From assembly GCF_988243305.1 (NCBI RefSeq), contig NZ_OZ547136.1: 64,000 nt of DNA; one strand, 5' to 3'. This document shows, piece by piece, positions 5,069-52,197 of the stretch. Positions within the stretch are counted from its first letter, which is position 1; each line of letters starts with the position of its first letter. The notes under the pieces are model-generated. The model was not told where the DNA came from and ran no database searches. It saw only the letters and a program-made list of their open reading frames with translations. The position numbers and the translations under genes were made by a program.

Positions 5069-5156
5069 TGGCGGTGAGGGGGGGATTCGAACCCCCGATA
5101 CGTTGCCGTATACACACTTTCCAGGCGTGCTCCTTCAGCCACTCGGACACCTCACC
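5069..5156 (-). tRNA. serX: tRNA-Ser (GGA), serX
   Basis: Reverse complement reads GGTGAGGTGTCCGAGTGGCTGAAGGAGCACGCCTGGAAAGTGTGTATACGGCAACGTATCGGGGGTTCGAATCCCCCCCTCACCGCCA: 88 nt, long variable arm, CCA end. Confidence 0.95.
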
Positions 5157-8355: not shown

Positions 8356-9189
8356 TCAGGATTCCGGTGGAACCGACATATGGCGGTATTTCACTAGAAT
8401 GTCATTCTGCCGTTCTGCTTTATTTTGCAAATCCCAAAGACCGCGGTCGATACCATCATTAATCAGGAAAATGACGCCTGTTTCGATAGCCGACATTAGG
8501 CACAGCATAACGGGTTCGTTCGAGGTGTAACCTACTTCCCCTTCCAGCAAGCGCTGGTAGTCAATAAAGCGGAAAACCCCGGCCTGAACTTCATAGGAAA
8601 GTATCGTCTTACTAGTGTTCACCGAGGAGAGGATCTCGCCGGTACTCACATTGACGACGCGCAGGTTCACGGCAATCTGATCAAGCTGGTATTGCGTGTC
8701 GGCACCGATCCCAAAATATCTTGCCCCAACCCCGCCCGATTTGACGTTGCTTTCATAACCGATAATTGAACCTTCAACCATGATATTTGCCGCCGTTAAA
8801 GACTGCAGCGGGATTCGGTTATTAATGGCAACCGTACCGTTTTCTTGTGCCGCACGAATAATCTTGCGCTCGTTAAGCAGGTTTTGTAAGCCCTGGCGCT
8901 CCAGCGGTATAAACCAGCGAGAATCTTTCAATGCCGTGACCAGCATTGCCGTGGCGCTTTGCGGAACAGCAGTGGAGAAGTTACTTGCCGGGTAGGGTTT
9001 AAATTGCCCGGTTTCGTCCTGAATGTTGTATACCGAAACAAAGATCTTACCCGTCGGCGCTGGCAGATGGGTCAAATCTTTGTAGCTCTGAGCACGAGGC
9101 ATTAATGTCGGTCTGGCGGCTTCTTTAGGCGGGGCGGTTAAGCATCCGCTCAGTAACATGACGGCAACCAAAAGAAATAAGCGCTGCAT
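8356..9189 (-). CDS. csgG: Curli secretion channel lipoprotein CsgG
   Basis: 277 aa; lipobox LLSGC. Confidence 0.95.
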   Translation of the reverse strand: MQRLFLLVAVMLLSGCLTAPPKEAARPTLMPRAQSYKDLTHLPAPTGKIFVSVYNIQDETGQFKPYPASNFSTAVPQSATAMLVTALKDSRWFIPLERQGLQNLLNERKIIRAAQENGTVAINNRIPLQSLTAANIMVEGSIIGYESNVKSGGVGARYFGIGADTQYQLDQIAVNLRVVNVSTGEILSSVNTSKTILSYEVQAGVFRFIDYQRLLEGEVGYTSNEPVMLCLMSAIETGVIFLINDGIDRGLWDLQNKAERQNDILVKYRHMSVPPES

Positions 9190-9215
9190 GATTATTTTCC
9201 TTACGAAGCTGGGGC

Positions 9216-9632
9216 TTAAAAATCGGTTGAGTTATTTTGTAAACCCGAAACCTGGATGGTCGAGGTTTGTCCGGTTTTACGATCTGTCACGTTCAACTGC
9301 AATTGACCATCGCGGTTAGCAATATCAACAATATAATCGTTGGTCACCATGCGGCCCGGTTTACCGGTATTAATATTCGACAGTAGCCCACCTAAAATTT
9401 GTGACTGGATGGCCTGAGTAAAGTTATCTAACGCTGAGGGTGTTTCAATACCATAGTCATCGTTATAGCTCGGATCTTTATACGAGTTTTGGGCCTGGGC
9501 GCTATTTAATAAAAAAGCGCCATTATTTGGGTTACCACCAAAGTTTGGATTACGGAACTGAAAAGTCATTGTTCCAGCCCAACTTAATGGCGAAATAAGC
9601 ATGAGTAGAACTACTGCATGTTTGACACGCAT
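9216..9632 (-). CDS. csgF: Curli assembly protein CsgF
   Basis: 138-aa ORF in csgDEFG operon order. Confidence 0.95.
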
Positions 9633-9656
9633 TGCAGCCTCCGAACAATTTTTTAT

Positions 9657-10046
9657 TTAGAATTCATCATGCGCCAAATCGCCCGTACTTAATAACGCCT
9701 GATTTATCTGGCGACGATTTAGTGCTTCTTCAGTTTGAATCAGTGCAAAGACGACAGTTTTTTCGAAGTCTCTTTTCAACGGGAATAAAAAAGTCTGGAA
9801 AATAACGTCCTGATTGACCGTTATAGTGATCCAGCTTCCCCATCGTGCACTGGGCCTTTCATTAATCGTTAAGTTACCCGTATAGTCACTTTCCCATTTA
9901 TCACTAAAGGCTCGGTAAAAATCATGGCCAATAGATGAAACAGTATGGTCAGTTAACAATCCCGGGACTTCTACCTCAACGGCGTGAAGATTCCCTGCGG
10001 CGAACAGAAATTCTGCCGCCACAATCCAGCGTAAATAACGTTTCAT
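9657..10046 (-). CDS. csgE: Curli secretion specificity factor CsgE
   Basis: 129-aa ORF. Confidence 0.95.
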
Positions 10047-10050
10047 GGCT

Positions 10051-10701
<651 letters not shown>

Positions 10702-11455
10702 GATGAAACCCCGCTTTTTTTATTGATCGCACACCTGACAGCTGCCTCTAAAATAGAAGCACCAGAAGTACTGACAGATGTTGCACTGCTGTGTGTAGTA
10801 ATAAATCAGCCCTAAATGGGTAAAATATAAAACTAATGGATTACATGTGATTTCAATCTAGCCATTACAAATCTTAAATCAAGTGTTAAACATGTAACTA
10901 AATGTAACTCGTTATATTAAAATGTTAATCTTAAGGTTTTGTTAAGTTTAGAAATGATAGAAAAGTTGTACATTTGGTTTTTATTGCACAATTTTAAAAA
11001 ATCATACAAATGGTGCTAACTTACTAATAATGCATATAAAAAATATTTCGGTGTAGTCCTTTCGTCATGTAAAACGTTGTTGTTTTTTCTTCACACCTCC
11101 GTGGACAATTTTTTACTGCAAAAAGACGAGGTTTGTCACGGCTTGTGCGCAAGACATATCGCAGCAATCAGCGACGGGCAAGAAGAATGGCTGTCTGGTG
11201 ATTTTTGATTGCGGAAAACGGAGATTTAAAAGAAAACAAAATATTTTTTTGCGTAGATAACAGCGTATTTACGTGGGTTTTAATACTTTGGTATGAACAA
11301 AAAAAGAAAAATACAACGCGCGGGTGAGTTATTAAAAATATTTCCGCAGACATACTTTCCATCGTAACGCAGCGTTAACAAAATACAGGTTGCGTTAACA
11401 ACCAAGTTGAAATGATTTAATTTCTTAAATGTACGACCAGGTCCAGGGTGACAAC
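10702..11455. promoter_or_regulatory. csgD-csgB divergent intergenic control region
   Basis: ~750-bp AT-rich non-coding stretch between divergent csgD and csgB starts; known multi-factor regulatory region. Confidence 0.8.
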
Positions 11456-11911
11456 ATGAAAAACAAATTGTTATTTATGATGTTAACAATACTGGGTGCG
11501 CCTGGGATTGCAGCCGCAGCAGGTTATGATTTAGCTAATTCAGAATATAACTTCGCGGTAAATGAATTGAGTAAGTCTTCATTTAATCAGGCAGCCATAA
11601 TTGGTCAAGCTGGGACTAATAATAGTGCTCAGTTACGGCAGGGAGGCTCAAAACTTTTGGCGGTTGTTGCGCAAGAAGGTAGTAGCAATCGGGCAAAGAT
11701 TGACCAGACAGGAGATTATAACCTTGCATATATTGATCAGGCGGGCAGTGCCAACGATGCCAGTATTTCGCAAGGTGCTTATGGTAATACTGCGATGATT
11801 ATCCAGAAAGGTTCTGGTAATAAAGCAAATATTACACAGTATGGTACTCAAAAAACGGCAATTGTAGTGCAGAGACAGTCGCAAATGGCAATTCGCGTGA
11901 CACAACGTTAA
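11456..11911 (+). CDS. csgB: Minor curlin (nucleator) CsgB
   Basis: 151 aa; signal peptide then imperfect Q/N/G-rich repeats. Confidence 0.95.
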   Translation: MKNKLLFMMLTILGAPGIAAAAGYDLANSEYNFAVNELSKSSFNQAAIIGQAGTNNSAQLRQGGSKLLAVVAQEGSSNRAKIDQTGDYNLAYIDQAGSANDASISQGAYGNTAMIIQKGSGNKANITQYGTQKTAIVVQRQSQMAIRVTQR

Positions 11912-11951
11912 TTACTATTCGACTTTTAAATCAATCCGATGGGGGTTTTAC

Positions 11952-12407
11952 ATGAAACTTTTAAAAGTAGCAGCAATTGCAGCAATCGTATTCTCCGGTA
12001 GCGCTCTGGCAGGTGTTGTTCCTCAGTACGGCGGCGGCGGTAACCACGGTGGTGGCGGTAATAATAGCGGCCCAAATTCAGAGCTGAACATTTACCAGTA
12101 CGGTGGCGGTAACTCTGCTCTTGCTCTGCAAGCTGACGCCCGTAACTCTGATCTGACCATTACCCAGCACGGCGGCGGTAACGGCGCAGATGTTGGCCAA
12201 GGTTCTGATGACAGCTCAATCGATCTGACTCAGCGTGGCTTCGGTAACAGCGCTACTCTTGATCAGTGGAATGGTAAAGATTCTACTATGACTGTTAAAC
12301 AGTTCGGTGGCGGTAACGGTGCTGCTGTTGACCAGACTGCATCTAACTCCAGCGTTAACGTCACTCAGGTTGGCTTTGGTAACAACGCGACCGCTCATCA
12401 GTACTAA
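11952..12407 (+). CDS. csgA: Major curlin subunit CsgA
   Basis: 151 aa; five S-x5-Q-x-G-x-G-N-x-A repeats. Confidence 0.95.
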   Translation: MKLLKVAAIAAIVFSGSALAGVVPQYGGGGNHGGGGNNSGPNSELNIYQYGGGNSALALQADARNSDLTITQHGGGNGADVGQGSDDSSIDLTQRGFGNSATLDQWNGKDSTMTVKQFGGGNGAAVDQTASNSSVNVTQVGFGNNATAHQY

Positions 12408-12426
12408 TACATCCTCTGTATTAAAG

Positions 12427-12453
12427 AAACAGGGCGCAAGCCCTGTTTTTTTT
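12427..12453 (+). terminator. Rho-independent terminator after csgA
   Basis: Hairpin AACAGGGCGCAAGCCCTGTT followed by T-tract. Confidence 0.75.
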
Positions 12454-12465
12454 CGGGAGAAGAAT

Positions 12466-12849
<384 letters not shown>

Positions 12850-12850
12850 G

Positions 12851-13230
<380 letters not shown>

Positions 13231-13324: not shown

Positions 13325-13858
13325 ATGAAAACGCGTATTCATGTTGTGCAGGGTGATATTACCAAACTGGCCGTTGATGTGATTGTGAATGCGGCTAATC
13401 CGTCATTAATGGGAGGCGGCGGCGTCGATGGGGCCATTCATCGCGCAGCGGGTCCGGCGCTGCTGGATGCCTGTTTAAAAGTCAGGCAACAGCAGGGCGA
13501 TTGCCCTACGGGGCATGCCGTTATTACGCTTGCAGGCGATCTTCCCGCGAAAGCCGTAGTGCACACCGTCGGGCCAGTCTGGCGTGGTGGTGAACAAAAC
13601 GAAGACCAGCTTTTGCAGGATGCCTATCTCAATAGCCTACGACTGGTGGCGGCAAACAGCTATACGTCAGTGGCTTTTCCTGCAATTAGTACTGGGGTTT
13701 ATGGTTACCCTCGTGCGGCAGCGGCTGAAATCGCAGTAAAAACCGTTTCAGAATTTATTACCCGTCACGCTTTACCCGAACAGGTATACTTTGTCTGTTA
13801 TGATGAAGAAAACACCCACCTCTACGAAAGACTCCTTACCCAACAAGGAGATGAATGA
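13325..13858 (+). CDS. ymdB: O-acetyl-ADP-ribose deacetylase (macro domain) YmdB
   Basis: 177 aa; macro-domain motifs NAAN...GGGGV. Confidence 0.93.
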
Positions 13859-15281
13859 TTTGCCCCGGCTGGCGAGCGCGGTGCTGCCACTGTGTTCGCA
13901 ACATCCCGGTCAGTGTGGCCTTTTCCCTCTGGAGAAAAGTCTGGATGCGTTTGCCGCCCGGTATCGTCTGGCCGAAATGGCAGAGCATACGCTGGATGTT
14001 CAGTATTACATCTGGCAGGACGATATGTCGGGTCGGTTACTGTTTTCCGCCCTGTTAGCCGCAGCAAAGCGTGGCGTTCGCGTCCGTTTGTTGCTGGACG
14101 ACAACAATACACCCGGACTTGACGACATTTTACGCTTGCTTGACAGTCATCCCCGCATTGAAGTCCGGCTTTTTAATCCTTTCTCGTTTCGCTTGCTACG
14201 TCCGCTTGGTTATATCACCGACTTTTCCCGTCTCAATCGCCGTATGCACAATAAAAGTTTCACTGTTGATGGCGTGGTGACGCTGGTAGGGGGGCGAAAT
14301 ATTGGTGATGCCTATTTTGGTGCAGGGGAAGAGCCACTTTTTTCGGATTTAGATGTCATGGCAATAGGACCAGTTGTAGAGGACGTTGCCGATGATTTCG
14401 CCCGCTACTGGTATTGCAAATCGGTTTCACCCCTACAGCAGGTGCTGGATGTCCCGGAAGGTGAAATGGCGGATCGCATCGAGTTACCCGCCTCCTGGCA
14501 CAACGATGCCATGACGCATCGTTATTTACGCAAAATGGAATCCAGCCCGTTTATAAATCATCTGGTTGATGGAACGTTGCCGCTTATCTGGGCGAAAACA
14601 CGTTTATTAAGTGATGATCCGGCGAAAGGGGAAGGCAAGGCAAAACGGCATTCACTGTTACCGCAGCGCCTGTTCGATATCATGGGCTCACCCAGTGAAC
14701 GCATCGATATTATCTCTTCCTATTTTGTACCGACACGCGCAGGTGTGGCGCAACTCTTACGGATGGTGAGAAAAGGGGTAAAGATTGCGATCCTAACCAA
14801 TTCTCTTGCCGCTAACGATGTTGCTGTCGTCCATGCCGGATACGCGCGCTGGCGCAAAAAATTGCTCCGCTACGGCGTGGAATTATATGAACTCAAGCCG
14901 ACGCGTGAACAAAGTAGTACGTTACACGATCGCGGCATAACCGGTAATTCCGGTGCCAGCCTGCATGCTAAAACCTTTAGCATCGATGGTAAAACGGTGT
15001 TTATCGGCTCTTTCAATTTCGATCCGCGTTCGACATTGCTCAATACTGAAATGGGGTTCGTGATAGAGAGCGAAACGCTGGCACAGTTAATTGATAAACG
15101 CTTTATTCAGAGCCAGTATGATGCGGCCTGGCAGCTCCGTCTGGACAGGTGGGGACGGATCAACTGGGTTGATCGTCATGCAAAGAAAGAAATTGTTCTC
15201 AAAAAAGAACCCGCCACCAGTTTCTGGAAGCGGGTTATGGTCAGACTGGCATCGATATTGCCCGTGGAATGGTTATTGTAA
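13851..15281 (+). CDS. clsC: Cardiolipin synthase C (phospholipase D family)
   Basis: Start overlaps ymdB stop by 8 nt; two HxK(x)4D-type motifs ([16 protein letters not shown]). Confidence 0.9.
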
Positions 15282-20919: not shown

Positions 20920-21015
20920 TTGCCTGATGCGCTACGCTTATCAGGCCTACATCGCTCCTGCAATGTGTTGATTTTGCAAGATTTTGTAGGTCGGATAAGG
21001 CGTTCACGCCACATC
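20920..21015. repeat. REP/BIME palindromic elements
   Basis: GCCTGATGCGCTACGCTTATCAGGCCTAC and GTAGGTCGGATAAGGCGTTCACGCC REP-like units downstream of opgH. Confidence 0.8.
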
Positions 21016-30115: not shown

Positions 30116-30220
30116 TAATCTCTATGCTCCGGCTGAAGGGATGTTTTTGCCGGACACAAAGGATAAGCGGAAACGTTTTCCTTTGCACGAAAAATAAAGG
30201 GCGCGAATGCGCCCTCGTGA

Positions 30221-51836: not shown

Positions 51837-52197
51837 CGTAACTTACTCATTATTCTTACATTGACGACTAAGCTGCGGGCAAAGTAACGCCTTTCCGGGT
51901 GTGAACCGATGGCCTCGTGTCTAGTCGCGTCGCCAACCTCACGGTTATCGTCAGCTCAAAGAGGCGCAGAGTGTCGGTTGCCCGTTTTTCATGCGGAAAA
52001 ACAGCGCAATTATCAAAGAAACAGACTGGGTATTACTCTCCAGAAATATTTCCATCTACCGGTAAGGACTGCAACCCGCAGCCCGCTAACTGCCTGAAAG
52101 ATCAATACGTCTTACGCCATTGCTGCGTGGATGATCGGTCGGGCAAAATGGGTTATTCCGTAAAATTTCTTGTTTTAACAAGGATGGACACGGAAAC
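51837..52197 (-). promoter_or_regulatory. rne 5' untranslated leader (autoregulatory in K-12)
   Basis: Long non-coding region upstream of rne start, divergent from rluC; extent taken from K-12 knowledge and is approximate. Confidence 0.6.

What the first reader, a model, noticed from the sequence alone, without database searches (positions are those of the whole stretch)
11456..12407. Internal amyloid repeat architecture in csgB and csgA
Both genes contain five imperfect tandem repeats of about 66 nt encoding the S-x5-Q-x-G-x-G-N-x-A-x3-Q curlin units. The DNA-level periodicity is visible in the GGCGGCGGTAAC-type recurrences.
Basis: partly seen in the sequence, partly recalled or inferred. 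Interest (0 to 1): 0.2.

Follow-up and report, generated by a model that had tools for sequence, protein, structure and literature searches.

The report
Known curli repeats in csgB/csgA
These are the ordinary E. coli curli fibre genes csgB and csgA, whose five-fold internal repeats are real but are a long-known protein feature, clearly visible in the DNA only for csgA.

Summary
Window 11456-11911 is csgB and 11952-12407 is csgA. Both match the NCBIfam equivalog models full length, sit in the csgDEFG/csgBAC layout, and are 99.9% identical to E. coli 042.

Each protein has five tandem curlin units and an unbroken ladder of ten Gln residues. Periodicity is far above chance (0 of 2000 codon shuffles reach it).

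- The motif S-x5-Q-x-G-x-G-N-x-A-x3-Q fits 5 of 5 CsgA units and 0 of 5 CsgB units. CsgB R1-R4 fit only Q-x-G-x2-N-x-A-x3-Q, and R5 is degenerate.
- GGCGGCGGTAAC-type recurrences occur only in csgA, and two of the five lie in N22, upstream of the repeats.
- csgA units alternate 69/66 nt. csgB is exactly 66 nt, with an equally strong 33-nt half-period.
- TRF finds nothing, and a windowed dot-plot is clear for csgA but not for csgB.
- With the protein held fixed, the DNA shows no excess periodicity. This is an old protein repeat, not a DNA tandem repeat.

The architecture is already known. The one item worth a note is that csgA is a local hotspot of synonymous divergence (dS 0.25 against K-12, versus 0.02 for csgB).

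The parts
11456..11911 (+). csgB CDS (curli minor subunit / nucleator), 151 aa plus stop
   Evidence: ORF. NCBIfam NF007506 equivalog matches 1-151 of 151, 270 bits. Annotated csgB in E. coli 042 and K-12.
11588..11653 (+). CsgB R1, aa 45-66, QAAIIGQAGTNNSAQLRQGGSK (66 nt)
   Evidence: Unit score z=4.8, 0 of 5000 shuffles. Model strands at aa 45-52 and 57-62.
11654..11719 (+). CsgB R2, aa 67-88, LLAVVAQEGSSNRAKIDQTGDY (66 nt)
   Evidence: Unit score z=5.6, 0 of 5000 shuffles. Model strands at aa 67-74 and 79-84.
11720..11785 (+). CsgB R3, aa 89-110, NLAYIDQAGSANDASISQGAYG (66 nt)
   Evidence: Unit score z=5.7, 0 of 5000 shuffles. Model strands at aa 90-96 and 101-106.
11786..11851 (+). CsgB R4, aa 111-132, NTAMIIQKGSGNKANITQYGTQ (66 nt)
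   Evidence: Unit score z=6.3, 0 of 5000 shuffles. Model strands at aa 111-118 and 122-128.
11852..11908 (+). CsgB R5, aa 133-151, KTAIVVQRQSQMAIRVTQR (57 nt). Degenerate unit: no Gly or Asn in arc 1, and K and M in place of the leading Asn of the two half-motifs.
   Evidence: Weakest unit, z=3.4, 4 of 5000 shuffles. It keeps both ladder Gln residues (Q139, Q150). Model strands at aa 133-140 and 144-150. The degeneracy of EcCsgB R5 is described in PMC10192328.
11952..12407 (+). csgA CDS (curli major subunit), 151 aa plus stop
   Evidence: ORF. NCBIfam NF007470 equivalog matches 1-151, 239 bits. PDB 8ENQ chain aligns over aa 21-151.
12012..12077 (+). CsgA N22 segment, aa 21-42, GVVPQYGGGGNHGGGGNNSGPN. 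Gly-rich and only weakly repeat-like (a degenerate 'R0'). It holds two of the five GGYGGYGGTAAY matches and the (GGC)3GGT tract at 12030-12041.
   Evidence: pattern positions. family D4: 12019-12037 resembles the R1 start, spacing 72; z=2.8, 24 of 5000 shuffles. Described as a degenerate repeat in PMC10192328. PDB 6L7C is a 22-residue CsgA chain matching aa 21-42.
12078..12146 (+). CsgA R1, aa 43-65, SELNIYQYGGGNSALALQADARN (69 nt)
   Evidence: Strict motif hit. Unit score z=5.5.
12147..12212 (+). CsgA R2, aa 66-87, SDLTITQHGGGNGADVGQGSDD (66 nt)
   Evidence: Strict motif hit. Unit score z=6.3.
12213..12281 (+). CsgA R3, aa 88-110, SSIDLTQRGFGNSATLDQWNGKD (69 nt)
   Evidence: Strict motif hit. 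Unit score z=6.9.
12282..12347 (+). CsgA R4, aa 111-132, STMTVKQFGGGNGAAVDQTASN (66 nt)
   Evidence: Strict motif hit. Unit score z=6.5.
12348..12404 (+). CsgA R5, aa 133-151, SSVNVTQVGFGNNATAHQY (57 nt)
   Evidence: Strict motif hit. Unit score z=5.8.
12423..12452 (+). Hairpin followed by a U-tract, between csgA and csgC. Terminator-like; context only.
   Evidence: RNA fold -23.4 kcal/mol, z=-4.86, 0 of 200 shuffles fold as well. Not flagged by the pattern scan.
12466..12798 (+). csgC (curli assembly chaperone); context only
   Evidence: Pfam Tafi-CsgC 180 bits. NCBIfam CsgC equivalog 171 bits.

Best explanation
The two genes encode the E. coli curli subunits: CsgB, the minor subunit and nucleator, and CsgA, the major fibre subunit.

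Architecture. After a signal peptide and an N-terminal segment, each protein consists of five tandem curlin repeats of 19-23 residues. Each repeat is two 7-residue strand motifs (motif a and motif b, pattern N/S-x-hydrophobic-x-hydrophobic-x-Q) joined by short Gly/Asn arcs. One repeat therefore forms one strand-arc-strand rung. The five rungs stack into a beta-solenoid whose core is zipped by ladders of Gln and of Asn/Ser.

How it works (established knowledge, not tested here). Subunits dock head-to-tail through their terminal repeats to build the amyloid fibre. CsgB, which has a compatible fold but a degenerate, charged R5, templates CsgA at the cell surface.

Source of the DNA periodicity. 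The 66/69-nt period is simply the codon-level shadow of this ancient protein repeat. The units have diverged to 28-70% nucleotide identity and show no sign of recent duplication, slippage or gene conversion.

Shown here: gene identity, unit boundaries, motif occupancy, significance of the periodicity, absence of excess DNA-level similarity, and purifying selection on motif positions. Inferred from the literature: the solenoid fold, nucleation and fibre assembly.
For: - Identity: NCBIfam CsgB and CsgA equivalogs match full length above cutoff. Pfam Curlin_rpt scores 86 and 97 bits against a cutoff of 20.7. The csgDEFG/csgBAC layout is present. The segment is found in 5382 of 5426 complete E. 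coli genomes.
- Periodicity: protein lag 22 z=8.6 and lag 11 z=8.6 in CsgB. Lags 45, 23 and 22 give z=9.8, 6.3 and 5.5 in CsgA. No shuffle reaches these values.
- Gln ladder: CsgB has Gln at 51, 62..., 150, exactly 11 apart. CsgA has Gln at 49, 60, 72, 83, 94, 105, 117, 128, 139, 150.
- Protein-level origin: when synonymous codons are permuted and the protein kept, observed DNA autocorrelation sits inside the null. csgB lag 66 gives z=0.6. csgA lag 135 gives z=0.5, and lag 69 gives z=1.9 (100 of 3000 permutations).
- Selection: among five csgA allele classes up to 9% apart, 44 of 49 variable codons are synonymous. The 4 replacements fall at unit positions 2, 19 and 23 and never at motif or core-facing positions. 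No allele has gained or lost a unit. dN/dS is 0.076.
- Structure: a single-sequence AlphaFold2 model of mature CsgB has ten strands, two per unit, at the predicted boundaries. The 8ENQ chain aligns to CsgA aa 21-151 with five differences, two of which are the engineered A63C and V140C.
- Literature: five imperfect repeats of 19-23 aa (PMC11414021). Motif a / arc / motif b beta-arch, EcCsgA with Ser in place of Asn in motif a, and EcCsgB predicted as a matching solenoid with Q, K and M at degenerate positions (PMC10192328). These are exactly the residues seen here in QAAIIGQ, KTAIVVQ and MAIRVTQ.
Against: - Nothing contradicts the identification.
- The CsgB model has only moderate confidence (mean pLDDT 68.7, no alignment).
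- Foldseek against the PDB gave no hit with E <= 0.001. 8ENQ ranked 11th at E=0.3.
- The 8ENQ fibre model's subunit connectivity is disputed (PMC12345197).
- Amyloid formation and nucleation cannot be tested from sequence.
Confidence: 0.96

Rival explanations
1. The periodicity is a true DNA-level tandem repeat: a recent duplication, or a slippage- or conversion-prone minisatellite whose unit number can vary. On this view it is not merely an old protein repeat.
For: - csgA shows clear dot-plot diagonals (270 dots against 29 expected) and a recurring GGYGGYGGTAAY string.
- csgA lag 69 is marginally above the synonymous-permutation null (z=1.9, 100 of 3000).
- One real length polymorphism exists: a GGC codon in the (GGC)n tract.
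Against: - TRF finds no array even at score 30.
- Unit nucleotide identities are only 28-70%.
- With the protein fixed, no lag in csgB, and neither lag 66 nor lag 135 in csgA, exceeds the synonymous-permutation null.
- Five allele classes up to 9% diverged all keep five units of unchanged length. The only indel is in N22, outside the units.
Confidence: 0.02
2. The apparent repeats are a by-product of biased composition (Gly, Asn, Gln, Ser and Ala-rich low-complexity sequence) and not a genuine period.
For: - Both proteins are rich in G, N, Q, S and A (translations).
- The csgB windowed dot-plot total (36) is within the range of codon shuffles (max 42).
Against: - Shuffles that keep composition exactly never reach the observed autocorrelation: 0 of 2000 for DNA and 0 of 1000 for protein, in both genes.
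- Ten Gln residues fall at exact 11-residue spacing in CsgB.
- Every unit aligns to the others far better than its own shuffles do.
Confidence: 0.01
3. The fundamental repeat is the 11-residue (33-nt) half-unit, giving ten copies per protein, not the 22-23-residue unit with five copies. On this view 'five repeats of 66 nt' is the wrong period, at least for csgB.
For: - In CsgB, lag 11 (z=8.57) is as strong as lag 22 (z=8.62), and DNA lag 33 (z=6.4) exceeds lag 66 (z=5.8).
- 23 of the 36 csgB dot-plot dots lie on the 33 diagonal and none on 66.
- CsgB motif a and motif b are nearly the same in R3 and R4: NLAYIDQ / NDASISQ and NTAMIIQ / NKANITQ.
Against: - The two arcs differ and alternate. Q-x-G-x-x-N follows motif a, and a 4-5 residue X-G-X-X(-X) loop follows motif b. 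The single-residue insertions in CsgA occur only in the second arc.
- In CsgA, lag 11 is weak (z=3.3), and motif a (S-x-bulky-x-bulky-x-Q) differs systematically from motif b (N-x-A-x-small-x-Q).
- One full rung of the solenoid needs both strands.
Confidence: 0.25

Closest known systems
E. coli K-12 CsgA (b1042) and the curlin repeat family (Pfam PF07012, NCBIfam NF007470)
   Same: - Same length (151 aa) and same N22 segment.
- Same five units R1-R5, each with S-x5-Q-x-G-x-G-N-x-A-x3-Q.
- Same locus position.
   Different: - 30 of 456 nucleotides differ, of which 24 are single synonymous changes.
- Three residues differ: T61A, N110D and E112T. All are at arc or outward-facing positions.
- This allele class matches E. 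coli 042 and occurs at >=99% identity in 768 of 5382 genomes.
E. coli K-12 CsgB (b1041), NCBIfam NF007506
   Same: Identical protein. There are 2 synonymous differences in 456 nt. Five units at an exact 22-residue period, with a degenerate R5.
   Different: Nothing of substance. Relative to CsgA it lacks the leading Ser and the second Gly of the motif, and its motif a and motif b are nearly the same, which gives the 11-residue half-period.
Pontibacter korlensis CsgA homologue R15.5 (PDB 8C50), the cryo-EM curli beta-solenoid
   Same: It is detected by sequence from both proteins, at E=2.6e-31 from CsgB and 1.8e-12 from CsgA. It shares the motif a / arc / motif b curlin repeat (PMC10192328).
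   Different: - 15.5 repeats instead of 5.
- 'Centrosymmetric' class, with motif a approximately equal to motif b.
- EcCsgA is in the non-centrosymmetric class. By the half-repeat stacks seen here, EcCsgB looks closer to centrosymmetric than EcCsgA does (my reading, not a statement found in the paper).

Membership tests
CsgA, curli major subunit (NCBIfam NF007470 equivalog) | Full-length match above the curated cutoff | tested here: met
   239 bits against a cutoff of 160, residues 1-151 on model positions 1-150 of 150.
CsgA, curli major subunit | Five tandem units carrying S-x5-Q-x-G-x-G-N-x-A-x3-Q (published more loosely as Ser-X5-Gln-X4-Asn-X5-Gln) | tested here: met
   Five of five strict matches, starting at aa 43, 66, 88, 111 and 133. 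Consensus as quoted in PMC11414021.
CsgB, curli minor subunit (NCBIfam NF007506 equivalog) | Full-length match above the curated cutoff | tested here: met
   270 bits against a cutoff of 165, residues 1-151 of 151.
   Zero of five strict matches. The relaxed Q-x-G-x2-N-x-A-x3-Q fits R1-R4, plus one out-of-register hit at aa 84. R5 fits neither. This motif defines CsgA, not CsgB, so CsgB membership is unaffected.
Curlin repeat proteins (Pfam PF07012; Sleutel et al. 2023 definition) | Pfam Curlin_rpt above the gathering score | tested here: met
   CsgB 86.3 bits and CsgA 97.5 bits, against a cutoff of 20.7.
Curlin repeat proteins | Q-x10-Q kernel; motifs a and b of form N(S)-x-hydrophobic-x-hydrophobic-x-Q, about 11 residues apart; repeat length about 23 +/- 5 residues | tested here: met
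   All ten half-units in each protein end in Gln. The first position is S (motif a) or N (motif b) in 10 of 10 CsgA half-units, and N in 6 of 10 CsgB half-units (Q, L, K and M in the other four). Unit lengths are 22-23 aa, with R5 at 19. Definition from PMC10192328.
Curlin repeat proteins | Genomic context: divergent csgDEFG and csgBA(C) operons | tested here: met
   csgG, F, E and D lie on the minus strand at 8356-10701, and csgB, A and C on the plus strand at 11456-12798.
Curlin repeat proteins | Beta-solenoid fold with one strand-arc-strand rung per repeat | tested here: inconclusive
   The CsgB single-sequence AF2 model shows ten strands, two per unit, but mean pLDDT is only 68.7. Foldseek against the PDB gave no hit at E <= 0.001. 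The top hits were beta-solenoid proteins, with 8ENQ at rank 11 and E=0.3. CsgA aligns by sequence to 8ENQ over aa 21-151, but the subunit arrangement in that model is disputed.
Curlin repeat proteins | Forms amyloid fibres; CsgB nucleates CsgA on the cell surface | not testable with these tools
   Needs Congo red or ThT assays and interbacterial complementation. Taken from the literature.
DNA tandem repeat (minisatellite / VNTR) | Head-to-tail DNA copies similar enough to be detected as an array | tested here: not met
   TRF gave 0 rows at minimum score 30. Unit nucleotide identity is 28-70%.
DNA tandem repeat (minisatellite / VNTR) | DNA similarity between units beyond what the encoded protein imposes | tested here: not met
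   Under the synonymous-codon permutation null, z ranges from -1.2 to 0.7 at all lags tested, except csgA lag 69 (z=1.9, 100 of 3000).
DNA tandem repeat (minisatellite / VNTR) | Copy-number variation of the unit among strains | tested here: not met
   Five allele classes all have five units. The only length change is one GGC codon in N22. Only five alleles were read, so rare variants are not excluded.

The most novel reading that the evidence does not exclude
The repeat architecture itself offers nothing new. The least ordinary reading left open concerns csgA as a population-genetic outlier in E. coli. Several deep allele lineages, 7-9% apart at the nucleotide level, encode almost the same protein, right next to a nearly invariant csgB. 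The novel reading is that this reflects something beyond ordinary recombination history. Candidates are long-term maintenance of allele classes, import from divergent Escherichia lineages, or selection on surface-exposed arc residues such as positions 61, 110, 112 and 134.
Probability: 0.12. Interest if true: 0.35.

Novelty: already known. Interest (0 to 1): 0.06.

Why it matters
It matters little as a discovery. The five curlin repeats of CsgA and CsgB are the textbook example of a functional bacterial amyloid and have been dissected genetically, biochemically and structurally.

The check is useful mainly as calibration:
- A protein-level repeat can be highly significant and still be invisible to DNA tandem-repeat finders.
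- The CsgA consensus should not be transferred to CsgB.
- The DNA signal differs between the two genes: 69/66 alternation in csgA, and a 33-nt half-period in csgB.

The incidental finding is that csgA has about ten-fold higher synonymous divergence than csgB while keeping every motif residue. It is a neat natural demonstration of purifying selection on the amyloid core and could be worth a short population-genetic follow-up.

Tried and rejected
- **Tandem Repeats Finder** on 11400-12450 at minimum score 30 gave nothing. The units are too diverged.
- **First family scans** failed because my csgC start was off by one base. They were repeated correctly.
- **Promoter/terminator pattern scan** of 10700-12950: promoter-like sites were no more frequent than in shuffles (6 against 5.3). 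The scan missed the obvious hairpin after csgA, which I then confirmed by folding.
- **Foldseek** of the CsgB model against the PDB gave no significant match, so I do not use it as support.
- **135-nt 'two-unit super-period'** in csgA (strongest lag). I considered an ancestral two-unit duplication and rejected it as the main cause. Lag 135 is the only lag that keeps all units in register, given the 69/66 alternation. In-register identity of adjacent units (68, 51, 54 and 51%) is no lower on average than that of alternate units (39, 70 and 61%). R2~R4 and R3~R5 are nevertheless the most similar non-adjacent pairs.
- **Repeat-driven mutation** as the cause of csgA's high divergence is unlikely. 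The flanking spacers (about 5%) and ymdA (4.5%) are also elevated, while the equally repetitive csgB is not.
- **Antisense ORFs** inside the genes (11648-11905 minus strand, 85 aa; 12216-12398 minus strand, 60 aa) have no supporting evidence and were not pursued.
- **Two literature searches** for csgA allelic diversity found nothing relevant in the held library.
- **One malformed literature query**.
Full report
**What is at the coordinates.** The interval 11456-12407 holds two 151-codon ORFs on the plus strand, 11456-11911 and 11952-12407, separated by 40 nt. The first matches the NCBIfam equivalog for the curli minor subunit CsgB over its full length (270 bits, cutoff 165). The second matches the CsgA equivalog (239 bits, cutoff 160). 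Both match Pfam Curlin_rpt. Upstream on the minus strand lie csgD, E, F and G (8356-10701). Downstream are csgC (12466-12798; Pfam Tafi-CsgC and the CsgC equivalog), ymdA, ymdB and clsC. The 952-nt interval is 99.9% identical to E. coli 042 and is found in 5382 of 5426 complete E. coli genomes, where RefSeq annotates csgB and csgA under it.

**Is the periodicity real?** Yes, in both genes.
- In the mature regions, DNA autocorrelation peaks at lags 33, 66, 132 and 99 in csgB (z = 6.4, 5.8, 4.8, 3.8 against codon shuffles).
- In csgA it peaks at lags 135 and 69 (z = 6.5, 5.6).
- None of 2000 shuffles reaches the observed maximum in either gene.
- At the protein level the peaks are lags 22 and 11 (both z = 8.6) for CsgB, and lags 45, 23 and 22 (z = 9.8, 6.3, 5.5) for CsgA. 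None of 1000 residue shuffles reaches them.
- Each of the ten units aligns to the other nine far better than its own shuffles do: 0 of 5000 for nine units, and 4 of 5000 for the weakest, CsgB R5.

**Anatomy.** The CsgA units are:

| Unit | Residues | Window | Length |
|---|---|---|---|
| R1 | aa 43-65 | 12078-12146 | 69 nt |
| R2 | aa 66-87 | 12147-12212 | 66 nt |
| R3 | aa 88-110 | 12213-12281 | 69 nt |
| R4 | aa 111-132 | 12282-12347 | 66 nt |
| R5 | aa 133-151 | 12348-12404 | 57 nt |

In the same register, the CsgB units are aa 45-66, 67-88, 89-110, 111-132 and 133-151. These map to 11588-11653, 11654-11719, 11720-11785, 11786-11851 and 11852-11908, that is four units of 66 nt and one of 57.

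Each protein carries ten Gln residues in a ladder. In CsgB they are exactly 11 residues apart (51 to 150). In CsgA the spacing is 11 except for two 12-residue steps after R1 and R3. Stacking the 7-mers that end at each ladder Gln gives:
- CsgA: SELNIYQ / NSALALQ, SDLTITQ / NGADVGQ, SSIDLTQ / NSATLDQ, STMTVKQ / NGAAVDQ, SSVNVTQ / NNATAHQ.
- CsgB: QAAIIGQ / NSAQLRQ, LLAVVAQ / NRAKIDQ, NLAYIDQ / NDASISQ, NTAMIIQ / NKANITQ, KTAIVVQ / MAIRVTQ.

This is the motif a / arc / motif b organisation published for curlin repeats. It includes the published remarks that EcCsgA has Ser for Asn in motif a, and that EcCsgB has Q, K and M at degenerate first positions in R1 and R5 (PMC10192328).

1. The motif S-x5-Q-x-G-x-G-N-x-A-x3-Q matches all five CsgA units but none of the CsgB units. 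CsgB R1-R4 satisfy only Q-x-G-x2-N-x-A-x3-Q, and R5 satisfies neither.
2. GGYGGYGGTAAY occurs five times in csgA and never in csgB. Two of the five are in N22, before the repeats. R3 and R5 carry GGCTTYGGTAAC.
3. The period is not uniformly 66 nt in csgA. In csgB the 33-nt half-period is at least as strong as 66 nt, because CsgB motif a and motif b are almost the same sequence.
4. At the DNA level the repeat is faint:
   - TRF finds nothing.
   - The repeat finder recovers periodic families only in csgA.
   - Unit nucleotide identities are 39-70% in csgA and 28-53% in csgB.
   - For csgB the dot-plot is not above the best shuffle (36 against a maximum of 42). Its dots lie on the 33 diagonal, with none on 66.

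**DNA repeat or protein repeat?** I permuted synonymous codons among positions encoding the same amino acid, which keeps the protein and the codon usage unchanged. Observed autocorrelation then falls inside the null at every relevant lag. csgB gives z = 0.0 at lag 33 and z = 0.6 at lag 66. csgA gives z = 0.5 at lag 135, and z = 1.9 at lag 69 (100 of 3000 permutations). So the DNA periodicity is fully accounted for by the amino-acid repeat. There is no trace of recent duplication or inter-unit gene conversion.

The strong 135-nt lag in csgA is mostly a register effect of the 69/66 alternation. Adjacent in-register units are on average as similar as alternate ones.

**Natural variation as a test of constraint.** I read five csgA allele classes: the window, K-12, 09-02E, O157:H7 2149 and S56. 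They differ by up to 9% in nucleotides.
- 44 of the 49 variable codons are synonymous.
- The four replacements sit at unit positions R1-19, R3-23, R4-2 and R5-2. None is at the S/Q/G/G/N/A/Q motif positions or at the core-facing positions 1, 3, 5, 7, 12, 14, 16 and 18.
- The only length change is one GGC codon in the (GGC)n tract of N22.
- All five alleles keep five units.
- dN/dS between the window and K-12 is 0.076.

**Structure.** A single-sequence AlphaFold2 model of mature CsgB (mean pLDDT 68.7, pTM 0.62) has ten strands. In protein numbering they are at 45-52, 57-62, 67-74, 79-84, 90-96, 101-106, 111-118, 122-128, 133-140 and 144-150. That is two per unit, beginning exactly at my R1.

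Foldseek against the PDB returned no significant hit. The top of the list is beta-solenoid proteins, with 8ENQ CsgA at rank 11 and E = 0.3. I count the fold test as inconclusive.

By sequence, CsgA aa 21-151 aligns to the 8ENQ chain with five differences, two of them the engineered A63C and V140C. Both proteins also hit the Pontibacter curlin 8C50. The subunit arrangement in 8ENQ is contested by Sleutel and Remaut (PMC12345197). The solenoid monomer itself is not contested.

**Mechanism.** Each repeat forms a strand-arc-strand rung. The rungs stack into a beta-solenoid with Gln and Asn/Ser ladders and a small hydrophobic core. Subunits add head-to-tail. CsgB has a compatible fold and a degenerate R5, and nucleates CsgA at the CsgG-CsgF complex (PMC10192328). 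CsgA R2-R4 carry gatekeeper residues that slow nucleation (PMC11414021). These steps are taken from the literature. Shown here is that this sequence has every sequence feature those steps depend on.

**Comparison and novelty.** This is E. coli CsgB (protein identical to K-12) and a common CsgA allele (T61A, N110D and E112T relative to K-12). The repeat architecture is already known in full, so interest is low.

**Noticed in passing.** csgA is the most diverged of 22 features in an 18-kb comparison with K-12.
- It differs at 6.6% of nucleotides, with dS of 0.25.
- csgB differs at 0.44%, with dS of 0.02.
- The other 18 genes compared, csgB among them, have dS of 0.014-0.115.
- Across complete genomes, csgB is >=99% identical to the window in 5234 of 5368. 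csgA is that close in only 768 of 5382, and 3637 fall in the 90-95% band.
- The flanking spacers and ymdA are also elevated. This points to a regional history, meaning recombination or old allele lineages, not a repeat-driven process.
- I found no description of this in two searches of the held library, which does not mean it is unreported.

Noticed in passing
window 11952-12407 (csgA), compared with 11456-11911 (csgB): csgA is a synonymous-divergence hotspot. Against K-12 it has 30 of 456 differences, dS 0.25 and dN/dS 0.08. csgB has 2 of 456 and dS 0.02, and the 18 other genes compared have dS of 0.014-0.115. Across complete E. coli genomes, csgB is >=99% identical in 5234 of 5368, while csgA is that close in only 768 of 5382, with 3637 at 90-95%. 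At least four or five deep allele classes encode nearly the same protein.
   Followed up: partly
window 12030-12041, (GGC)3GGT in the N22 part of csgA; L003 and L004: Some E. coli lineages (strain 09-02E, O157:H7 2149) carry one extra GGC codon here, giving a 152-aa CsgA with GGGGG in place of GGGG. It is the only length polymorphism seen among the five alleles, and it lies outside the five repeats.
   Followed up: yes
window 12423-12452, plus strand: A strong hairpin followed by a U-tract sits between csgA and csgC (-23.4 kcal/mol, z=-4.9). It looks like an intrinsic terminator, which would make csgC expression depend on read-through. The consensus terminator scan did not flag it.
   Followed up: partly
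window 10757-10848, minus strand: An Rfam ES056 sRNA match (116.6 bits, gathering score 43) lies immediately upstream of the csgD start codon (10701). The 'sRNA' family therefore corresponds to the csgD 5' untranslated region.
   Followed up: no
window 12919-13230 (ymdA): ymdA is the second most diverged gene in the neighbourhood against K-12, at 4.5% of nucleotides. It has the highest dN of those compared (0.029, dN/dS 0.26).
   Followed up: no
L006 (E. coli EC96, NZ_CP060748.1), locus 1322-1620: This genome has lost csgB and most of csgA. Only the last ~130 nt of csgA remain, annotated as a pseudogene, about 170 nt from csgD. It is a natural curli-subunit deletion. About 44 of 5426 genomes have no csgBA match at all.
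   Followed up: partly
E. coli genome search results: Five csgB/csgA matches lie on records classed as plasmids, and a few genomes have two places. This is unexpected for a chromosomal locus. I did not inspect them.
   Followed up: no
window 13791-13860 (start of clsC, overlapping the end of ymdB): The annotated clsC start differs between records. K-12 starts at the position equivalent to window 13860. E. coli 042 RefSeq starts about 60 nt upstream (equivalent to window 13800), overlapping ymdB. The longest ORF starts at TTG 13791.
   Followed up: no
window 51861-52197 (-), 54058-54226 (+), 30116-30165 (-), 20943-20985 (-), 5072-5156 (-): Other Rfam gathering-level hits in the window are the rne 5' UTR element, SraB sRNA, the PyrC leader, ES036 (CssrF) sRNA, and a tRNA corresponding to K-12 serX. 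All are expected for this E. coli region.
   Followed up: no
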